NCBI GenBank assembly: GCA_002773695.1
Contig: PFAJ01000070.1
Location: 5,961-46,334 of the forward strand
Source of the DNA: Candidatus Doudnabacteria bacterium CG10_big_fil_rev_8_21_14_0_10_41_10
Lineage (GTDB): Bacteria; Patescibacteriota; Doudnabacteria; UBA920; 2-01-FULL-50-11
Length of the DNA stretch: 40,374 nucleotides
Reading direction: 5' to 3'
Shown piece by piece: positions 29,447 through 38,825 of this stretch (positions within the stretch are counted from its first letter, which is position 1; every line of letters starts with the position of its first letter). A program made the translations under genes and the position numbers. The notes beneath the pieces were generated by a model that searched no databases, was not told the DNA's origin, and worked only from the letters and a program-made list of their open reading frames with translations.

Positions 29447-30655
29447 TTACAAATTTTTCAAACCCCTTACGACAGACGAAATAGTCCCTTTATGAAACTC
29501 TATTTCCAGTTCATCATTTATTTTAACGTCTCCCGCTTGCCTTATTATTTTACCAGATTTTCGTACAATACTGTAGCCTCGTCTTAGGATATCTTTCGGA
29601 CCGAGCGAATGTAAAAGTTTGCGCAAAGACCCATTGCGATTTTTGTATCTTTGTAGTTTGTCGGAAAGCATGGAAAATTCAAACTGAAATTTTTGTCGGG
29701 CTGATTTGATGACAGAAAATTTTTCCAAAATCGTCTCTCGTAAAAGTGAAGTTTGAGTGTTCAATTTATAACCAAGGGCTTCTAGCCGGCACCCTACTAT
29801 TTGTCGTTGGTCGGCAATAGTTTGGTTTATTTCGCTAATTAAATTTTCAGATTTAGGAACCAAGAGTTGCGCAGCATGCGTGGGAGTACTCGCCCGCTTG
29901 TCTGCCGCAAGCTCGGCTAAAGAAACATCGCGTTCGTGGCCAATCCCCACCACCACGGGAATTTTTGATGAAAACACAGCTCTTACGACTTCTTCCGAAT
30001 TAAATTCTTTCAAATCTTCAAGTGATCCTCCACCACGGGTGAGTACCAAAACATCTGGTTTTTCTTTTACCGAATTAAAATATTCAAACGCCGCAAGAAT
30101 TTCCGGAACCGCTTTTTCTCCCTGCACGGCTACCGGAGTAAATATAATTGTGAGTCCTCCCATACGAGAATTTATTTGTCTTATAAAATCGGTATAGGCC
30201 GCCGCTTGCTCCGAAGTAATTAGCCCAATTTTTTCTGGAAACCTTGGTAATGGACGCTTTCTGTTTTCGGAAAAGACTCCTTCTTTTTTCAGTTTAGTTT
30301 TTAATAATTCAAACGCGCGCTTCAACGACCCTTCACCCGAAATCTCAATTTTTTCCACTTGAAAAGAAAATTTGCCGGAGCGGCCAAAGATTTTTGGATA
30401 GCCAAAAATCTTTATTTTCATACCGTCTTCAAGTGGTTGACGGATGCGATAAGTAAGAGAGAAACAGTTTAACGATTCATTATTATCTTTTAGATTAAAC
30501 CAAACAAATTTATTTTGGCTTACCCGAAAATCAGAAATTTCCCCTTCCACAGTTACGCGTAAAGGGGTGACAATATCGTTTACGAATTGGTTGAATTCGG
30601 AAACGGAAAATATTTTATCTTGGATAAGATCAGTAATTTCCATATAGTTTGCCAT
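29447..30655 (-). CDS. xseA: exodeoxyribonuclease VII large subunit
   Basis: An OB-fold N-terminus (FSVSEFNQFVNDIV...FNLKD) followed by the catalytic region. The start is set at the ATG at 30655 (MANYMEITD) or 30643, because the longer track ORF would overlap the upstream SpoU gene. Confidence 0.85.
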   Translation of the reverse strand: MANYMEITDLIQDKIFSVSEFNQFVNDIVTPLRVTVEGEISDFRVSQNKFVWFNLKDNNESLNCFSLTYRIRQPLEDGMKIKIFGYPKIFGRSGKFSFQVEKIEISGEGSLKRAFELLKTKLKKEGVFSENRKRPLPRFPEKIGLITSEQAAAYTDFIRQINSRMGGLTIIFTPVAVQGEKAVPEILAAFEYFNSVKEKPDVLVLTRGGGSLEDLKEFNSEEVVRAVFSSKIPVVVGIGHERDVSLAELAADKRASTPTHAAQLLVPKSENLISEINQTIADQRQIVGCRLEALGYKLNTQTSLLRETILEKFSVIKSARQKFQFEFSMLSDKLQRYKNRNGSLRKLLHSLGPKDILRRGYSIVRKSGKIIRQAGDVKINDELEIEFHKGTISSVVRGLKNL

Positions 30656-30773
30656 CCAGAACTTATAGCCTACTTCACCGAAGTGACTAGCCGACACCGA
30701 CAAAGTAGCCTTTGGATACGACGGCTGGATGAAGGTTGAATTCAGGATCAATAACCTAAATTTAGATTCCGGA

Positions 30774-31241
30774 TCATGTCCAAAATGACGAGATATAGTG
30801 CATAGCAATTCCTGCCGCCACTGACACATTTAGCGACTCTTTTTTACCTTGCATGGGAATTTCAACTATTTTGTCGCAAAGTTTTAAATAGTCTTTTTTT
30901 ATTCCCTTTACTTCCTCACCCAAAAGCAAAGCGCAGGGAAATTTTGGCTTGAATTTATTAAGAGAAATAGTACCAGAAACATTGTTCTCTAACGCAACGA
31001 TTTGAAAATGATATTGTTCGAGCTTGTCGAGAATTCGCTTCAAATGTTTTTGATATTCCCAAGCCACTAATTTTTCCGCTCCCAGCGCGGTTTTTGCCAA
31101 ACGGAAATTTTTCGGAGTGCCGGTATAGCCCGTCAGGATGATTTTATCCACCCCAAAAGCGTCGGCCGTGCGGAAGATTGACCCGACGTTATACAGGCTT
31201 CGAATGTTATGGGAGATGATGTAAAAGAGACCTTTGTACAT
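30774..31241 (-). CDS. SpoU/TrmH-family RNA 2'-O-methyltransferase
   Basis: 155 aa with NVGSIFRTADAFG ... LLGEEVKGI ... ESLNVSVAAGIAM motifs of SPOUT methylases. Confidence 0.75.
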   Translation of the reverse strand: MYKGLFYIISHNIRSLYNVGSIFRTADAFGVDKIILTGYTGTPKNFRLAKTALGAEKLVAWEYQKHLKRILDKLEQYHFQIVALENNVSGTISLNKFKPKFPCALLLGEEVKGIKKDYLKLCDKIVEIPMQGKKESLNVSVAAGIAMHYISSFWT

Positions 31242-31349: not shown

Positions 31350-32104
31350 AGTAGGCTTTTGGCTAGTGTGTGCTGGTCAGTACACCGGTATCGGAACAAC
31401 AGTGGCGCTCTGGTTTTTGGACTGGTTCCAATTACTCTGGGGCTTTTGGGTTTTATCGGTGCAAGTTCAGATGTAGCACTCTCAATGCCGGAAGGTGTAG
31501 ACGCTTCCATGATCGGAGTTTTAGTAGTAGGAAAACTGCTTCCAACTTGGGCGACAACTTTATTTATAATTATGCTTGTCAGCGCTTTAAGTTCTACAAT
31601 CGATTCAGGTTTAAATGCTGCCGCAAGTTTATATTCGACAGATGTTATGAAATATTCACAGCAGGATCGAGATATCATGTTGCGATTCGAGAGGGGTGAA
31701 ATATTATCTGACAAAGAAAAACTTTATAAATATTTATTAGACGCAAAAAGACTTTCTGGATCTCGAACCATGATGGTAGTTTTAACTATTACGGGATTTC
31801 TTGTTGCAATGGGTGTTATTTATATTCCAAGATTTGAACTTTTTCATTTATGGTGGATATTCAATACAATAGCCGCATGTGTTGTGGTTTCCACCATTCT
31901 TAGTTTGTATTGGGAAAGGTTAAATCCAAAAGGTGTATTTTGGGGAGTAATATTTGCTTTTTTATAGGTCTTCCGGTTTTTATTTATAGTAATATTATTC
32001 AAAACAATGTAATAATTGTTTTAAGCGTCTTGGGGATTATAACTGTAACCACGCTTTTTTGTTTGGCTATACCAAAAAAATCTACACAGCCCAATCAGTC
32101 TTAA
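31350..32104 (+). pseudogene. remnant of a sodium:solute symporter (SSS family), N-terminally truncated and frameshifted
   Basis: The frame from 31359 encodes ...LVSALSSTIDSGLNAAASLYS..., an SSS-like C-terminal half, with no room upstream for the missing N-terminal part. The reading frame ends at 31965-31967 just after a T6 run (31958-31963). The final TM segment continues in another frame (31910-32104: ...FFIGLPVFIYS...). Confidence 0.6.
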
Positions 32105-32197: not shown

Positions 32198-32201
32198 ACA
32201 A

Positions 32202-32273
32202 AGCGGGTAACGGGAGTCGAACCCGTATCTCGTCCTTGGCAAGGACGCATAATAGCCACTATACGATACCCGC
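32202..32273 (-). tRNA. tRNA-Gly (anticodon GCC)
   Basis: The minus strand reads GCGGGTATCGTATAGTGGCTATTATGCGTCCTTGCCAAGGACGAGATACGGGTTCGACTCCCGTTACCCGCT. Cloverleaf with anticodon loop TTGCCAA and T-loop TTCGACT. No encoded CCA. Confidence 0.9.
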
Positions 32274-32369
32274 TAAAAAAACTAACAATATTAATTTTTT
32301 AATTTACAAGGAATTGAGTATTAGTGAGAGAGAGAAAATGAAATACAAAATTGGAAAAAATTATAATAA

Positions 32370-32448
32370 GGTGCGGGGTGAGCCCATATCCCTGCCGGCG
32401 GCAGGGCATCCTTGGCAAGGACGCATAATACCACTATACGATACCCGA
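32370..32448 (-). pseudogene. orphan tRNA-Gly(GCC)-like 5' part fused to a foreign hairpin and the 13-mer TCACCCCGCACC
   Basis: The minus strand reads TCGGGTATCGTATAGTGGTATTATGCGTCCTTGCCAAGGATG-CCCTGCCGCCGGCAGGG-ATATGGGC-TCACCCCGCACC. The acceptor 5' strand, D arm and anticodon arm are nearly identical to the real gene about 100 nt downstream. The T arm is replaced and there is no matching 3' acceptor strand. Confidence 0.65.
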
Positions 32449-32511
32449 CGAAAAGAATATTTAAATATACTTTCCAATTTTAACTTAAAAACAATCCTTC
32501 TTCAACCCCCC

Positions 32512-34177: not shown

Positions 34178-34714
34178 TTATAATCTAACTAGCCTGTACT
34201 CCCATCCTGGTCTCCATGCCCAAGGGGTGGTTACCGCCTGCCTTAAAAGGGTCTTATTTATAAAATATTCAAGAGCATATTGTGTTGCCCGGTGACCTAT
34301 TATTAAAACAGTTTTGCCGTCGTATTTTTTTAGTAAGTCTAGCAAAAAAAATTTCATTAGCGTCGTGGTTTATTCATAGCTTTCCCCTTCTGGAAAAGGT
34401 ATTTTTACCTTCCGAGCTTTTTGGTATTTAACCTCGGCGCTTGGTCGTTTGGTCATCTTCCCGTAATCAATCTCCGAAAGTCTTTTGTCAATAATTATCG
34501 GGATACGATTTTCGAATGCGATTTTTCCCGTATCCAAAGATTTTTTTAGATTGGAACAAAAAACCGCGTCGGGTAAATTATTTTTATACCTATCCCCCAA
34601 TTGTTTCGCTTGCGTCTCACCTAGTTTGGAGAGTTCTATATCATAGTGACCTGAGGCAAGTCCTTTTTCATTGTTCAAAGTTGTACCGTGTGCTTCAAAA
34701 ATGATAGTAATCAT
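34178..34714 (-). pseudogene. histidine phosphatase (phosphoglycerate-mutase-like) family gene interrupted by an in-frame TAA
   Basis: The N-terminal part (34373-34714) ends ...PEGESYE, followed by TAA at 34370-34372. The same frame then continues TTTLMKFFLLDLLKKYDGKTVLIIGHRATQYALEYF...RLVRL to the stop at 34178-34180. The canonical RHG motif reads EAHGTT, so the catalytic Arg is replaced by Ala. Confidence 0.7.
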
Positions 34715-34815
34715 TTCGTTTTATTCTACGTGAAACAATTGTAAAACACTCTTAATCGGGGCGCTGGGAGTTGATCCGCCTAGGCGGACTACACGCGCCT
34801 TTACCCCGTTAAACA

Positions 34816-34886
34816 TCGGGATGCCGGGAATCGAACCCGGTCTTCACGCACCCGAAGCGCGCGTACTACCGGTATACTACATCCCG
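34816..34886 (-). tRNA. tRNA-Pro (anticodon CGG)
   Basis: The minus strand reads CGGGATGTAGTATACCGGTAGTACGCGCGCTTCGGGTGCGTGAAGACCGGGTTCGATTCCCGGCATCCCGA. Anticodon loop TTCGGGT with G37, T-loop TTCGATT. Confidence 0.9.
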
Positions 34887-35031
34887 ATGATGTCTAACGG
34901 GGCGAACGTACGTTTTTTATTTTGTGAAATTTTTTAAAAGAAATTTGTTCCGGTTAAATTCCCTCCCCCGATCTCGTTTCCATGAGATTTTTTGAGCTTT
35001 ACCCCCGGCGGAATTTCACCCCGCACCTTTT

Positions 35032-35103
35032 TCTCCCCACCAGGAATCGAACCTGGATCTAGGGCTTAGGAGTCCCTTGTTCTATCCATTGAACTACGGG
35101 GAG
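35032..35103 (-). tRNA. tRNA-Arg (anticodon CCT)
   Basis: The minus strand reads CTCCCCGTAGTTCAATGGATAGAACAAGGGACTCCTAAGCCCTAGATCCAGGTTCGATTCCTGGTGGGGAGA. Anticodon loop CTCCTAA. It closely parallels the E. coli argW layout as I remember it. Confidence 0.88.
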
Positions 35104-35108
35104 CAAAA

Positions 35109-35174
35109 GGCGCGGGGTGAACTTACATTTAGAGCTTAGGCTTCCCTTGTTCTATCCATTGAACTTACGGGGAC
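35109..35174 (-). pseudogene. orphan tRNA-Arg(CCT)-like 5' part ending in TTCACCCCGCGCC
   Basis: The minus strand reads GTCCCCGTAAGTTCAATGGATAGAACAAGGGAAGCCTAAGCTCTAAATGTAAG-TTCACCCCGCGCC. The D arm is identical to the real gene 5 nt downstream. The anticodon loop is changed to AGCCTAA (U33 lost), and there is no T arm or 3' acceptor strand. Confidence 0.65.
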
Positions 35175-35309: not shown

Positions 35310-35418
35310 TGGTTTGGGCCAACTGCCTGCCCACCGAAGTCATAGACAAAGGTGGGAGCGATAGGCCCATACTATTTTAGATTACCTAAAGCAATATATC
35401 ATAAATTGTATTATTATT

Positions 35419-38780: not shown

Positions 38781-38825
38781 GGTGCGGGGTGAAAATGCCG
38801 CGTAATACCACTTTACTACCGGTCC
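38781..38825 (-). pseudogene. orphan tRNA-Ala-like 5' half ending in TTCACCCCGCACC
   Basis: The minus strand reads GGACCGGTAGTAAAGTGGTATTACGCGGCATT-TTCACCCCGCACC. The D arm and the 5' anticodon stem are identical to the real tRNA-Ala(CGC) 8 nt downstream, and the acceptor strand differs. The tRNA similarity breaks off inside the anticodon loop. Confidence 0.65.

What the first reader, a model, noticed from the sequence alone, without database searches (positions are those of the whole stretch)
32370..32448. Orphan tRNA-Gly(GCC) copy with intact D and anticodon arms but a foreign hairpin in place of the T arm
About 100 nt upstream (minus-strand sense) of the real tRNA-Gly lies a second copy of its first roughly 43 nt. 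It carries a one-base deletion, a changed first base, and a G-U in the anticodon stem, and retains anticodon GCC.

It then continues into a 7-bp GC hairpin, CCCTGCC-GCC-GGCAGGG, then ATATGGGC, then TCACCCCGCACC. This is the same 13-mer family that ends the orphan Arg and Ala halves.

Three independent tRNA families carry the same arrangement: a 5' part of the same isoacceptor, the same GC-rich terminus, always upstream of the functional gene. Random pseudogene decay is an unlikely explanation. The arrangement suggests one of three things:
- a targeted process, such as element insertion or replacement at tRNA genes that duplicates the 5' side
- a functional leader RNA
- split-tRNA-like parts, by analogy with Nanoarchaeum, where 5' half genes are followed by GC-rich complementary tags
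Basis: partly seen in the sequence, partly recalled or inferred. Interest (0 to 1): 0.72.

Follow-up and report, generated by a model that had tools for sequence, protein, structure and literature searches.

The report
Leftover of an invaded tRNA gene
The "orphan" half tRNA-Gly is the leftover front part of an older tRNA gene that was broken by a small hairpin-ended insertion which holds an intact tRNA of the same kind, and I found this tRNA-inside-tRNA arrangement in many candidate-phyla-radiation (CPR) bacteria but in no paper I could search.

Summary
The window (a Patescibacteria/CPR chromosome) holds a 43-nt copy of the 5' part of tRNA-Gly(GCC), then a 17-nt palindrome, 8 nt and TCACCCCGCACC, 95 nt upstream of the intact gene. 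tRNA-Arg(CCT) and tRNA-Ala(CGC) have the same arrangement.

The 12-mer is one arm of a conserved inverted repeat, TTCA-CCCCGCACC ... GGTGCGGGG-CRRG/TGAA. In 48 non-redundant units from public metagenomes and genomes this repeat brackets a complete tRNA. The unit sits inside a loop of a second, "outer" tRNA gene of the same type, up to three levels deep.

The same repeat bounds intervening sequences (IVS) in 23S rRNA genes of three genomes. One of these carries a GIY-YIG nuclease gene.

The orphan is therefore the decaying outer 5' part of an invaded tRNA-Gly gene, and the intact gene is the copy that replaces it. In the window only tRNA-Arg keeps both repeat arms. tRNA-Gly and tRNA-Ala(CGC) have lost the other arm and the outer 3' part.

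The structure and its spread are shown. RNase III processing of the stem and mobilisation by a GIY-YIG nuclease are inferred. How the inner tRNA copy arises is unknown. Ten literature searches found no description of nested tRNA genes. I rate it a new variant of a known kind.

The parts
32407..32449 (-). Outer tRNA-Gly(GCC) 5' remnant (the 'orphan'): acceptor 5' strand, D arm and whole anticodon arm, about positions 1-43
   Evidence: 39 of 40 positions identical to the intact gene, with one gap (blastn E=1.5e-13; alignment). Coordinates. Not called as a tRNA by ARAGORN or Rfam.
32390..32406 (-). Small GC palindrome CCCTGCC-GCC-GGCAGGG inserted after the anticodon stem of the outer tRNA-Gly
   Evidence: Sequence. 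The related palindrome CCTGCC(TGCC)GGY(GGCA)GGCAGG lies in D loops of tRNA sequences that flank nested units or stand next to an intact copy, in L088, L174, L215, L237 and L262, and upstream of tRNA-Gly in L105.
32370..32381 (-). 'End A' arm of the inverted-repeat element (here cTCA-CCCCGCACC); no partner arm is left at this locus
   Evidence: The same arm, with its partner GGTGCGGGG, brackets a complete tRNA in 48 non-redundant units elsewhere.
32275..32369 (-). 95-nt AT-rich spacer between the repeat arm and the intact tRNA-Gly. It is unusually long: 3-16 nt in the other units.
   Evidence: No sigma-70-like site was found on the minus strand inside it, whereas one lies upstream of the orphan at 32505-32477.
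32201..32274 (-). Intact (inner, functional) tRNA-Gly(GCC), followed by a terminator hairpin at 32190-32166
   Evidence: ARAGORN; Rfam tRNA model 60.6 bits; terminator sequence.
35122..35174 (-). Outer tRNA-Arg(CCT) 5' remnant, through the T stem 5' strand; degenerate (U33 replaced, T stem no longer pairs)
   Evidence: 47 of 54 positions identical to the inner tRNA-Arg; sequence.
35109..35121 (-). Repeat arm TTCACCCCGCGCC, 5 nt upstream of the inner tRNA-Arg
   Evidence: It pairs with 35027-35015 in the predicted fold.
35032..35103 (-). Intact inner tRNA-Arg(CCT)
   Evidence: ARAGORN; Rfam 61.4 bits.
35015..35027 (-). Partner repeat arm GGTGCGGGGTGAA, 4 nt downstream of the inner tRNA-Arg
   Evidence: The fold of 35180-34995 gives a 17-bp stem (including one G-U pair) that encloses the cloverleaf, z = -4.2.
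35000..35014 (-). Stub of the outer tRNA-Arg 3' part (T loop end, acceptor 3' strand; ATTCCGCCGGGGGTA)
   Evidence: 10 of 12 positions match inner positions 57-69, directly after the arm. Its CGGGGG pairs with the outer 5' strand GUCCCCG in the fold. Too short to be significant alone.
38794..38825 (-). Outer tRNA-Ala 5' remnant. It ends at position 32-33, just before the anticodon, and its acceptor strand (GGACCGG) differs from the inner gene (GGGCTCA).
   Evidence: 25 of 25 positions identical to inner positions 8-32 (blastn E=2e-9); sequence.
38781..38793 (-). Repeat arm TTCACCCCGCACC, 8 nt upstream of the inner tRNA-Ala(CGC) at 38772-38701; the partner arm is not recognisable downstream
34755..34906 (-). 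tRNA-Pro(CGG) unit: variant arm TTCGCCCCGTTAG (34906-34894), inner tRNA (34887-34815), partner TTAACGGGGTAAAG (34812-34799), then the outer tRNA-Pro 3' remnant (34797-34755) carrying a small palindrome TCCGCCTAGGCGGA
   Evidence: Sequence. The remnant aligns to inner positions 38-73 with a 7-nt insertion; score 28 against 15.7 +/- 3.4 for shuffles, p about 0.005.

Best explanation
**What it is.** The orphan is the 5' remnant of a former ("outer") tRNA-Gly gene. That gene was interrupted by a member of a widespread family of small insertions bounded by inverted repeats. The arms are TTCA-CCCCGCACC on one side and GGTGCGGGG-CRRG or -TGAA on the other. The family also occurs as intervening sequences (IVS) in 23S rRNA genes.

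**Why the tRNA version looks as it does.** When the insertion sits in a tRNA gene, it encloses a complete tRNA gene of the same type. The host therefore keeps a working copy, and the interrupted outer gene is free to decay.

**State of the window.**
- tRNA-Arg still has both arms and stubs of both outer parts.
- tRNA-Pro has a variant pair of arms and an outer 3' remnant.
- tRNA-Gly and tRNA-Ala(CGC) keep only the outer 5' part and one arm.

**Shown.**
- The nested architecture and its recurrence.
- The pairing and covariation of the arms.
- That the same termini bound the 23S IVSs.
- The decay of the outer parts.

**Inferred.**
- (a) Outer promoter, remnant, arms and inner tRNA are transcribed as one RNA. 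The 12-17-bp stem is cut by RNase III, as for rRNA IVSs, and RNase P and 3' processing then release the inner tRNA.
- (b) The element is spread by small GIY-YIG nucleases acting on genes for structured RNAs. The outer tRNA parts would serve as homology arms. Only insertions that bring or create a replacement tRNA would survive ("home and rescue").
- (c) The step that produces the inner copy is unknown.
For: **Architecture.**
- In L027, L040, L034, L098, L088, L095 and L015, the sequence after GGTGCGGGG-CRRG continues the tRNA whose 5' part precedes TTCACCCCGCACC. The acceptor and anticodon stems of the two parts match.
- ARAGORN in intron mode reports intron-containing tRNAs that span the nested unit in L015, L017, L027, L040, L067, L068, L088, L090 and L095, among others.
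- L095 holds three nested tRNA-Val(CAC) genes with covarying arm variants.

**Statistics on 48 non-redundant bracketed tRNAs.**
- Flanks resemble the inner tRNA in the sense orientation, above the 99th percentile of shuffles, in 24 units upstream, 23 downstream and 32 on at least one side. The antisense control gives 1 and 1.
- Insertion sites fall in loops: anticodon arm 16, T loop 10, variable region 3, D region 1.

**The stem is a selected structure.**
- The three pairs next to the invariant core covary: AU 31 / UA 15, UA 23 / AU 20, and AU 19 / UA 18 / CG 5.
- No shuffle out of 500 reaches the observed covariation score.
- The window Arg unit folds into a 17-bp stem plus cloverleaf, z = -4.2.

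**Link to rRNA intervening sequences.** The same arms lie inside 23S rRNA genes in L153 (Methylotuvimicrobium), L203 (Uhrbacteria) and L191. The L153 copy carries an 86-aa GIY-YIG ORF (Pfam E = 2.7e-16).

**Link to GIY-YIG nucleases.**
- L209 reads: orphan tRNA-Trp 5' part, palindrome, GIY-YIG ORF, intact tRNA-Trp. L226 reads: 20-nt orphan, GIY-YIG ORF, TTCACCCCGTTAG, intact tRNA-Ile.
- In six of six family members picked without regard to tRNAs, the ORF starts about 75-95 nt downstream of a tRNA gene.

**Outer parts are relics.**
- Of the 48 units, 18 have no recognisable part of the outer tRNA directly next to the arms, and only 15 have flanks that resemble the inner tRNA on both sides.
- In the outer Ala and Met genes read in full, no anticodon is left in the interrupted loop.
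- Extra small palindromes are found in outer or flanking tRNA remnants, not in the tRNAs that ARAGORN calls intact.

**Spread.** Hits come from many CPR lineages and from MAGs labelled Elusimicrobia and Bdellovibrionales.

**Transcription.** A promoter-like site lies upstream of the Gly orphan, and none was found on that strand in the 95-nt spacer.
Against: - No nuclease or recombinase gene lies near the window's tRNAs.
- At the Gly locus the partner arm and the outer 3' part are missing and the spacer is 95 nt instead of 3-16 nt. Its history must include further deletion or rearrangement that I cannot reconstruct.
- The association with GIY-YIG genes is correlative. Only a few nested loci have such an ORF within 1 kb.
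- No autonomous element with the same arms was found, apart from the 23S IVS of L153.
- In L167 and L219 the outer and inner tRNAs are identical over about 50 nt. The arms occur in both orientations relative to the tRNA, yet the inner tRNA is always in the sense of the outer one. Both points suggest that the target itself is duplicated at insertion, and no known mechanism explains that.
- No filled-versus-empty polymorphism was found.
- RNase III cleavage is assumed from rRNA IVSs and was not tested.
- G-U pairs and well-kept cloverleaf pairing in many outer genes would also fit a function for the whole RNA.
Confidence: 0.7

Rival explanations
1. Functional processing scaffold. The inverted repeat is a normal leader/trailer processing stem for tRNAs of these lineages, like the RNase III stems around rRNAs. 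The outer tRNA-like parts are kept because they help transcription, folding, RNase P recruitment or stability of the precursor. On this view the orphan is a functional leader.
For: - The stem covaries and uses G-U pairs, which speaks for RNA-level pairing.
- The Arg unit folds far better than shuffles.
- A promoter-like site precedes the orphan, and none was found on that strand before the inner tRNA-Gly.
- Many outer genes keep matching acceptor stems.
Against: - Only some tRNAs carry it. tRNA-Leu just outside the window has none, and many tRNAs in the same contigs have none.
- Outer parts are missing or one-sided in 33 of 48 units.
- In the window the Gly and Ala-CGC loci have lost one arm, so no stem can form.
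- The Gly orphan alone has z about 0.
- The same arms occur in 23S rRNA and around cargo that is not a tRNA. That fits a mobile insertion, not a tRNA-specific leader.
Confidence: 0.14
2. Intron-containing or split tRNA. The outer tRNA is a real gene whose intervening sequence, which happens to hold another tRNA, is cut out at the GC-rich helix. Its halves are then ligated, or work as a two-piece tRNA, as in archaeal bulge-helix-bulge introns or Nanoarchaeum split tRNAs.
For: - The geometry is 5' part + GC tag ... complementary tag + 3' part.
- Insertion sites lie in the D, anticodon, variable and T loops, which recalls non-canonical archaeal introns.
- ARAGORN in intron mode calls several outer genes.
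Against: - The junction is a continuous helix with an A.C mismatch and partial pairing next to it. It lacks two 3-nt bulges 4 bp apart.
- The interrupted loop is replaced. Removing the element leaves no anticodon in the outer Ala and Met genes read in full, and no T-loop TTCG in T-loop cases.
- Outer parts are frequently truncated or carry further palindromes.
- At the window's Gly and Ala-CGC loci no 3' part exists.
- Ten literature searches, some aimed at tRNA introns in CPR bacteria, returned nothing on protein-spliced tRNA introns in bacteria.
Confidence: 0.06
3. Scars of integrase-mediated integration. A phage or genomic island integrated into each tRNA gene, restored it with its own copy, and was later mostly deleted. 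This left att-like partial duplications.
For: - tRNA genes are classic integration sites, and break points in the anticodon and T loops are typical of them (my own knowledge of tRNA integration sites, Williams 2002).
- Synteny is broken next to tRNA-Gly relative to related genomes.
Against: - Integrating elements normally duplicate the 3' part; here the 5' part is upstream, and in intact examples both parts flank a unit of only about 110 bp.
- No integrase lies in the window's tRNA neighbourhoods.
- The same 12-mer occurs at unrelated tRNA types and in 23S rRNA across phyla.
- The arms pair with each other and covary, which att sites do not do.
Confidence: 0.04
4. Coincidental local duplications or assembly chimeras of strain variants.
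For: Short partial duplications near tRNA genes can arise by slippage. The data are metagenomic.
Against: - The loci are identical in three to seven independent assemblies.
- The same architecture appears in about 48 non-redundant loci from different assemblers, projects and phyla.
- Motif enrichment in the window.
Confidence: 0.01

Closest known systems
Intervening sequences (IVS) of bacterial 23S rRNA genes (helix 25 / helix 45; Salmonella, Coxiella, Leptospira; short non-intron insertions in CPR rRNA genes, PMC11270868)
   Same: - A short insertion replaces the loop of a hairpin in a gene for a structured RNA.
- It is bounded by inverted repeats that form an extended stem.
- Its distribution is sporadic and crosses phyla.
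- It sometimes carries a small ORF.
- The very same arms (CCCCGCACC / GGTGCGGGG) bound IVSs in the 23S rRNA genes of L153, L191 and L203.
   Different: - rRNA stays functional when the IVS is cut out without religation. A tRNA cut in its anticodon or T loop would not.
- The tRNA version encloses a complete replacement tRNA, and the interrupted gene decays.
- I found no report of IVSs in tRNA genes. PMC11270868 never mentions tRNA.
Free-standing or intron-less homing endonuclease genes that travel with a piece of the target gene. Examples from my own knowledge, not checked here: phage T4 SegB in the tRNA cluster; the GIY-YIG ORF plus a foreign atp6 C-terminus in Allomyces mitochondria, which leaves the resident C-terminus as a pseudogene.
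   Same: - A small GIY-YIG nuclease gene lies next to or inside the disrupted gene.
- A functional copy comes with the element.
- A displaced remnant of the resident gene lies beside it (L209, L226, L153).
   Different: - Most nested units, and all those in the window, have no nuclease ORF.
- The replacement is a whole gene nested inside the old one.
- Nuclease activity and target are untested.
Phage or island integration into tRNA genes with restoration of the gene from the element's attP copy
   Same: - tRNA genes are the target.
- Break points lie in the anticodon and T loops.
- A partial duplicate lies beside a functional gene.
   Different: - No integrase.
- The element is about 100-130 bp.
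- The 5' part is displaced upstream and the 3' part downstream of a complete inner gene.
- The termini form a conserved, covarying hairpin.
Archaeal disrupted tRNA genes: Nanoarchaeum split tRNAs, and Thermoproteales tRNA introns that transpose between tRNAs (cited in PMC10714607)
   Same: - GC-rich complementary sequences follow the 5' part and precede the 3' part.
- Insertions lie at several loop positions.
- Related intervening sequences occur in different tRNAs.
   Different: - No bulge-helix-bulge motif.
- Loops are replaced, not split.
- An intact tRNA lies inside.
- The hosts are bacteria.
- Outer genes decay.
Small palindromic mobile repeats in compact genomes (MITEs, REPINs, Rickettsia palindromic elements, GC clusters and double-hairpin elements of fungal mitochondria; from my own knowledge)
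   Same: - GC-rich hairpin-forming repeats in an AT-rich genome.
- Several copies per genome.
- Insertion into genes for RNAs and at gene starts: the class of hits without tRNA cargo, with TTCA on both flanks.
   Different: - The same 9-12-bp terminus is conserved across phyla.
- The cargo in tRNA genes is a tRNA of the same type as the target.
- No transposase partner is known.

Membership tests
rRNA-type intervening sequence (IVS) | Insertion replaces the loop of a hairpin in a gene for a structured RNA | tested here: met
   Break points fall in the anticodon loop, T loop, variable region and D loop of the outer tRNA. In the window the Arg insertion is in the T loop, Ala-CGC at positions 32/33, and Gly after the anticodon stem.
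rRNA-type intervening sequence (IVS) | Terminal inverted repeats that form an extended stem | tested here: met
   9-bp core plus 3 covarying pairs; 0 of 500 shuffles reach the covariation score. 17-bp stem in the window's Arg unit. At the Gly locus itself only one arm is left.
rRNA-type intervening sequence (IVS) | Members of the same sequence family reside in 23S rRNA at known IVS sites | tested here: met
   The same arms lie inside the LSU rRNA genes of L153, L191 and L203 (Rfam). The flanking rRNA sequence corresponds to the helix-25 region by my own comparison with E. coli 23S.
rRNA-type intervening sequence (IVS) | Excised from the transcript by RNase III without religation | not testable with these tools
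   Needs RNA end mapping or an in vitro RNase III assay.
rRNA-type intervening sequence (IVS) | Host RNA stays functional after excision | tested here: not met
   In the outer Ala and Met genes read in full, no anticodon is left in the interrupted loop; T-loop cases lose the T loop. Outer parts are truncated in 33 of 48 units, and at three of the four window loci that keep a remnant (Gly, Ala-CGC, Pro). Function is supplied by the inner tRNA instead.
Homing-endonuclease-driven element (GIY-YIG) | Nuclease ORF inside or next to the insertion | tested here: inconclusive
   Absent from the window. Present in L153 (inside a 23S IVS with the same arms), in L209 and L226 (between the orphan 5' part and the intact tRNA), and next to nests in L098 and L171. 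Six of six sampled family members lie about 75-95 nt downstream of a tRNA gene.
Homing-endonuclease-driven element (GIY-YIG) | Nuclease cuts the uninterrupted target allele; filled and empty alleles coexist | not testable with these tools
   No empty allele was seen for the window organism: the assemblies are identical. Cleavage needs biochemistry.
Split tRNA / bulge-helix-bulge tRNA intron | Bulge-helix-bulge motif at the exon-intron junctions | tested here: not met
   Alignment A1 shows a continuous helix with an A.C mismatch and partial pairing next to the core. It lacks two 3-nt bulges 4 bp apart.
Split tRNA / bulge-helix-bulge tRNA intron | Joining the parts gives a complete tRNA with an anticodon | tested here: not met
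   In the anticodon-loop cases read in full (outer Ala and Met), the loop is replaced by TTCA...CRRG and no anticodon remains. For outer Glu(UUC) an anticodon-like TTC overlaps the arm, which is ambiguous. The window's Gly and Ala-CGC have no 3' part.
Split tRNA / bulge-helix-bulge tRNA intron | GC-rich complementary tags after the 5' part and before the 3' part | tested here: met
   Window Arg: 35121-35109 and 35027-35015. Many related loci. Not met at the Gly locus itself.
Integrase-type integration scar at a tRNA gene | Integrase gene and an att duplication of the tRNA 3' part that flanks a long element | tested here: not met
   No integrase among neighbouring ORFs. The duplicated part is 5' and lies 5-95 nt from the intact gene.
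MITE / REPIN-like palindromic repeat | Terminal inverted repeats, several copies per genome, target-site duplication, autonomous partner with the same ends | tested here: inconclusive
   - Inverted repeats and multiple copies: met (four arms with this core, plus a variant pair at tRNA-Pro, in 7 kb of the window; three or four loci in some MAGs).
- TTCA on both flanks only in the class without tRNA cargo.
- No long element with the same ends in 1.2 Mb of fetched loci, except the GIY-YIG IVS of L153.

The most novel reading that the evidence does not exclude
A family of IVS-like hairpin elements, found in several phyla, invades the loops of tRNA genes. It survives there because each insertion creates or carries a complete copy of the tRNA it destroys. 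This would be a natural "home-and-rescue" element, and repeated rounds would build tRNA-in-tRNA-in-tRNA nests.

Two observations hint that the insertion step itself duplicates its target, by a mechanism not yet described:
- In some loci the outer and inner tRNAs are identical.
- The arms can face either way, while the inner tRNA always matches the sense of the outer one.
Probability: 0.4. Interest if true: 0.85.

Novelty: new variant of a known kind. Interest (0 to 1): 0.74.

Why it matters
- **A new way to disrupt and rescue tRNA genes in bacteria.** Bacteria are thought to have only self-splicing group I introns in tRNA genes. This would add a further class of disruption, linked to the poorly understood rRNA intervening sequences and to the small GIY-YIG genes that are common in CPR genomes.
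- **Annotation.** It explains tRNA-like fragments that gene finders miss or miscall. ARAGORN in intron mode gave wrong anticodons for the outer genes.
- **A record of past invasions.** Each relic marks one earlier event at that locus.
- **A possible new mechanism.** If the target is duplicated at insertion, that points to an undescribed DNA or RNA mechanism. Such a natural design could interest work on gene drives and on tRNA scaffolds.
- **rRNA intervening sequences.** It makes testable the idea that these are mobile elements with a defined terminal stem.

Tried and rejected
- **Synteny with relatives.** Loci at 57-78% XseA identity (L008-L013) lack tRNA-Gly beside the SpoU methylase gene and lack the motif, so there was no orthologous comparison.
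- **First genome-contig scan.** A scan with the Wzy-like protein found nothing.
- **Viral contigs.** No hit for the motif-to-T-loop pattern.
- **Motif as a tRNA 3' end.** TCACCCCGCACCA is a real tRNA 3' end (T-stem end, acceptor strand, discriminator, CCA) in L054 and L074, and closes a tRNA-like sequence in L106 and L109. The orphans' 5' strands do not pair with it, so the orphans are not odd complete tRNAs.
- **Promoter, CRISPR repeat or guide-RNA handle.** Rejected. Spacing to the tRNA varies, there are no arrays, and both arms pair across the tRNA.
- **Bulge-helix-bulge intron.** The junction does not fit.
- **Rfam at relaxed threshold.** Only the five tRNAs, plus a weak Deinococcus Y RNA hit (23 bits against a gathering score of 80) on the bracketed tRNA-Arg.
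- **Autonomous element.** A search for a long element with the same arms in 1.2 Mb of fetched loci found none apart from L153.
- **Nuclease or recombinase domains near the window's tRNAs.** None found in unknown ORFs.
- **Literature.** Searches for nested tRNAs, CPR tRNA introns, bulge-helix-bulge in Patescibacteria, the motif itself, GIY-YIG with tRNA, and IVS with tRNA found nothing on point.
- **High-GC hits.** Hits of both DNA scans in Streptomyces, Nocardioides and a protein-coding family look like chance or unrelated sequence and were set aside.
Full report
**1. The observation**

On the minus strand the window reads as follows.

| Coordinates | Sequence or feature |
|---|---|
| 32449-32407 | GTCGGGTATCGTATAGTGGTATTATGCGTCCTTGCCAAGGATG |
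| 32406-32390 | CCCTGCCGCCGGCAGGG |
| 32389-32382 | ATATGGGC |
| 32381-32370 | TCACCCCGCACC |
| 32369-32275 | 95 AT-rich nt |
| 32274-32201 | intact tRNA-Gly(GCC), then a terminator hairpin |

- ARAGORN and Rfam find five tRNAs in the window, all on the minus strand: Gly-GCC, Pro-CGG, Arg-CCT, Ala-GGC and Ala-CGC. Neither tool calls the orphan.
- The orphan matches the real gene at 39 of 40 positions with one gap (E = 1.5e-13).
- Partial copies followed by the same 12/13-mer precede tRNA-Arg (35174-35122) and tRNA-Ala-CGC (38825-38794).
- The motif is over-represented.
- The loci are identical in several independent assemblies.
- The window is a Patescibacteria (CPR) chromosome segment near dnaA.

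**2. What the 12-mer is**

Four nt after tRNA-Arg lies the inverted copy GGTGCGGGGTGAA (35027-35015). The two arms bracket the tRNA. The predicted fold of 35180-34995 has a 17-bp stem that encloses a cloverleaf, with the outer GUCCCCG pairing to CGGGGG beyond the stem (z = -4.2).

I scanned public metagenomes for the arm followed by a T loop and species-representative genomes for the arm pair at tRNA distance. After GC-rich chance hits were set aside, the low-GC hits show one recurring design:

[5' part of a tRNA] - TTCA-CCCCGCACC - 3-16 nt - [complete tRNA of the same type] - 2-22 nt - GGTGCGGGG-CRRG (or -TGAA) - [3' part that completes the first tRNA].

So the orphan belongs to an outer tRNA gene that is interrupted by an insertion containing an inner, intact tRNA. 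ARAGORN in intron mode reports intron-containing tRNAs spanning many of these units. L095 holds three nested tRNA-Val genes whose arm variants covary (ACGCCCCCACACC / GGTGTGGGGGT and TGCCCCGTCGCC / GGTGACGGGGTG).

**3. Numbers**

I extracted 48 non-redundant bracketed tRNAs.

| Measure | Result |
|---|---|
| Upstream flank resembles the inner tRNA, sense orientation, above the 99th percentile of shuffles | 24 units |
| Downstream flank, same test | 23 units |
| At least one side | 32 units |
| Both sides | 15 units |
| Antisense control | 1 upstream, 1 downstream |
| Break point in the anticodon arm | 16 |
| Break point in the T loop | 10 |
| Break point in the variable region | 3 |
| Break point in the D region | 1 |
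| No recognisable outer part directly next to the arms | 18 |
| Outer-to-inner identity | median 0.88, range 0.73-1.00 |

- The 9-bp core was fixed by my search patterns. The next three pairs were free, and they covary almost perfectly: AU 31 / UA 15, UA 23 / AU 20, and AU 19 / UA 18 / CG 5. No shuffle out of 500 reaches the observed covariation score, and slid registers fall to 42-52% paired cells against 82%.
- Outside the core, TTCA faces CRRG. This gives U.G or U-A, U-A or U.G, and C-G or C.A pairs, then a conserved A.C mismatch.
- The arms sit in either orientation relative to the tRNA. TTCA...CRRG dominates in anticodon-loop cases and the flipped form in T-loop cases. The inner tRNA always has the sense of the outer one.

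**4. Are the outer genes functional?**

Probably not.
- The interrupted loop is replaced rather than split. After the element is removed, the outer Ala and Met genes read in full have no anticodon, and T-loop cases lack TTCG.
- Outer parts are missing on one or both sides in 33 of 48 units.
- Outer or flanking tRNA remnants collect further tiny palindromes. Examples are CCTGCCTGCCGGCAGGCAGG in D loops (L088, L174, L215, L237, L262) and TTGCCCCGCCAAAGGCGGGGTGAA in a relic tRNA-Ser (L256). The window's CCCTGCCGCCGGCAGGG is one of these.
- The junction is not a bulge-helix-bulge motif.
- In the window, the outer Arg has a degenerate anticodon loop and a T stem that no longer pairs. The outer Gly and Ala-CGC have no 3' part. 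The Gly orphan alone folds no better than shuffles.

**5. Link to rRNA intervening sequences and GIY-YIG nucleases**

- Among hits without tRNA cargo, three lie inside 23S rRNA genes: L153 (Methylotuvimicrobium sp. KM1), L203 (Uhrbacteria) and L191. By my own comparison with E. coli 23S rRNA they lie in the helix-25 region, a classic IVS site.
- The L153 IVS has two arm units around an 86-aa GIY-YIG ORF.
- PMC11270868 describes short insertions in CPR rRNA genes that are not introns. They lie at the known RNase III IVS sites, and GIY-YIG ORFs occur only in such insertions. The paper does not mention tRNA.
- Homologues of the L153 protein occur next to disrupted tRNAs:
  - L209: orphan tRNA-Trp 5' part, palindrome, ORF, intact tRNA-Trp.
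  - L226: 20-nt orphan, ORF, TTCACCCCGTTAG, intact tRNA-Ile.
  - L098 and L171: ORF beside nested tRNA-Met genes.
- In six family members picked from a protein search without regard to tRNAs, the ORF starts about 75-95 nt after a tRNA gene. In most of them the linker is a similar two-hairpin sequence starting AACGT.
- The window itself has no such ORF.

**6. The whole window**

Four of the five tRNAs carry significant traces.

| tRNA | Outer 5' remnant | Arms | Outer 3' remnant |
|---|---|---|---|
| Gly-GCC | yes (32449-32407), plus a palindrome | one arm only | none |
| Arg-CCT | yes (35174-35122) | both | short stub (35014-35000) |
| Ala-CGC | yes (38825-38794) | one arm only | none |
| Pro-CGG | none | variant pair TTCGCCCCGTTAG / TTAACGGGGTAAAG | yes (34797-34755), with a palindrome; p about 0.005 |

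- Ala-GGC is preceded by GGGCCTA plus a hairpin (TCGCTCCCACC ... GGTGGGCAGGCA) that may be a further, very decayed case. It is not significant.
- A promoter-like site lies upstream of the Gly orphan, and none was found on that strand in the 95-nt spacer. This fits co-transcription through the orphan.

**7. Interpretation**

- **Shown:** the nested architecture, its recurrence in many CPR lineages and some other phyla, a selected terminal stem, the same termini on 23S IVSs, and decay of the outer parts.
- **Inferred from what is known of rRNA IVSs:** the stem is an RNase III site, and the inner tRNA is released from a common precursor.
- **Inferred from association only:** GIY-YIG nucleases mobilise the elements, outer parts serve as homology arms, and selection keeps only insertions that restore the tRNA.
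- **Unexplained:**
  - How the inner copy arises. L167 and L219 have identical outer and inner tRNAs, and the arm orientation is uncoupled from the tRNA sense. Both hint at duplication of the target at insertion.
  - Why the 9-bp core is conserved across phyla.
  - What removed the second arm and lengthened the spacer at the Gly locus.

**8. Comparison with known systems**

The closest known kind is the rRNA IVS. Three defining features are met. Excision by RNase III could not be tested. The feature "host RNA stays functional" is not met, because the inner tRNA supplies the function instead.

The arrangement works like an endonuclease-associated gene replacement (T4 SegB, Allomyces atp6; my own knowledge), but most copies lack the nuclease. 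It is not an integrase scar, and it is not a Nanoarchaeum-type split tRNA or a bulge-helix-bulge intron.

**9. Verdict**

The finding is real, and its general idea of a targeted insertion at tRNA genes is right. The specific object is a relic and does nothing much itself. It does, however, point to a widespread arrangement of nested tRNA genes that I could not find described.

Noticed in passing
window 34755-34906 (-): tRNA-Pro(CGG) is bracketed by a variant inverted repeat (TTCGCCCCGTTAG / TTAACGGGGTAAAG). It is followed by a 3' remnant of an older tRNA-Pro with a small palindrome (TCCGCCTAGGCGGA) in its T arm.
   Followed up: yes
window 35310-35368 (-): Upstream of tRNA-Ala(GGC) lies GGGCCTA, which resembles the gene's first 7 nt. 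It is followed by a hairpin TCGCTCCCACC...GGTGGGCAGGCA and by GGCCC-AAACCA. This may be a very decayed outer gene, but the similarity is not significant (p about 0.45).
   Followed up: partly
L138, L141, L146, L151, L162, L163, L181, L186, L225 and others (Omnitrophota, Planctomycetes and unclassified MAGs): The same arms bound MITE-like units of about 110-130 bp without tRNA cargo. Their inverted repeats are about 22 bp (CCCCGCACCTTCTYTTWTATTCA), TTCA lies on both flanks, and some MAGs have three or four copies. Many sit exactly at gene starts (reverse strand ATGAA|CCCC...). The other end, ...GGGGTGA|AGAAG, could recreate a GTG start codon with an upstream AAGGTG.
   Followed up: partly
L253, L256, L259, L262, L265, L268 (ORF at about 2001-2300 in each): Small GIY-YIG ORFs of CPR bacteria start about 75-95 nt downstream of a tRNA gene in six of six sampled loci. 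In most of them the linker is a similar two-hairpin sequence starting AACGT. In L256 and L262 the 3' end of the ORF overlaps a tRNA-Ser call.
   Followed up: partly
L088, L171, L174, L215, L237, L262, L031, L032 and others; window 32390-32406: A perfect 20-nt palindrome CCTGCCTGCCGGCAGGCAGG recurs in CPR contigs. It often lies inside the D loop of disrupted tRNA genes.
   Followed up: partly
window 34178-34714 (-): A histidine-phosphatase gene is split into two adjacent ORFs (114 aa and 59 aa), which suggests a frameshift or pseudogene next to the tRNA cluster.
   Followed up: no
window 31359-31967 (+): Only the C-terminal part of a sodium:solute symporter is present, beside tRNA-Gly. In a relative (L009) a gene with a NUDIX domain lies directly next to the SpoU methylase gene, so the 2.4 kb that hold tRNA-Gly lie at a synteny break.
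   Followed up: partly
window 35015-35118 (-): The bracketed tRNA-Arg gives a weak Rfam hit to Deinococcus Y RNA (23 bits against a gathering score of 80). The likely reason is only that both are a long stem plus a tRNA-like domain.
   Followed up: no
window 29447-30829 (-): The mechanical XseA ORF is 460 aa, but relatives are about 398 aa and cover 85% of it. The true start is probably downstream, and the apparent overlap with the SpoU gene would then disappear.
   Followed up: no
L167 2797 and L219 1200: Outer and inner tRNAs are identical over about 50 nt (51/51 and 53/53). These insertions are very recent, or they were made by copying the target itself.
   Followed up: partly
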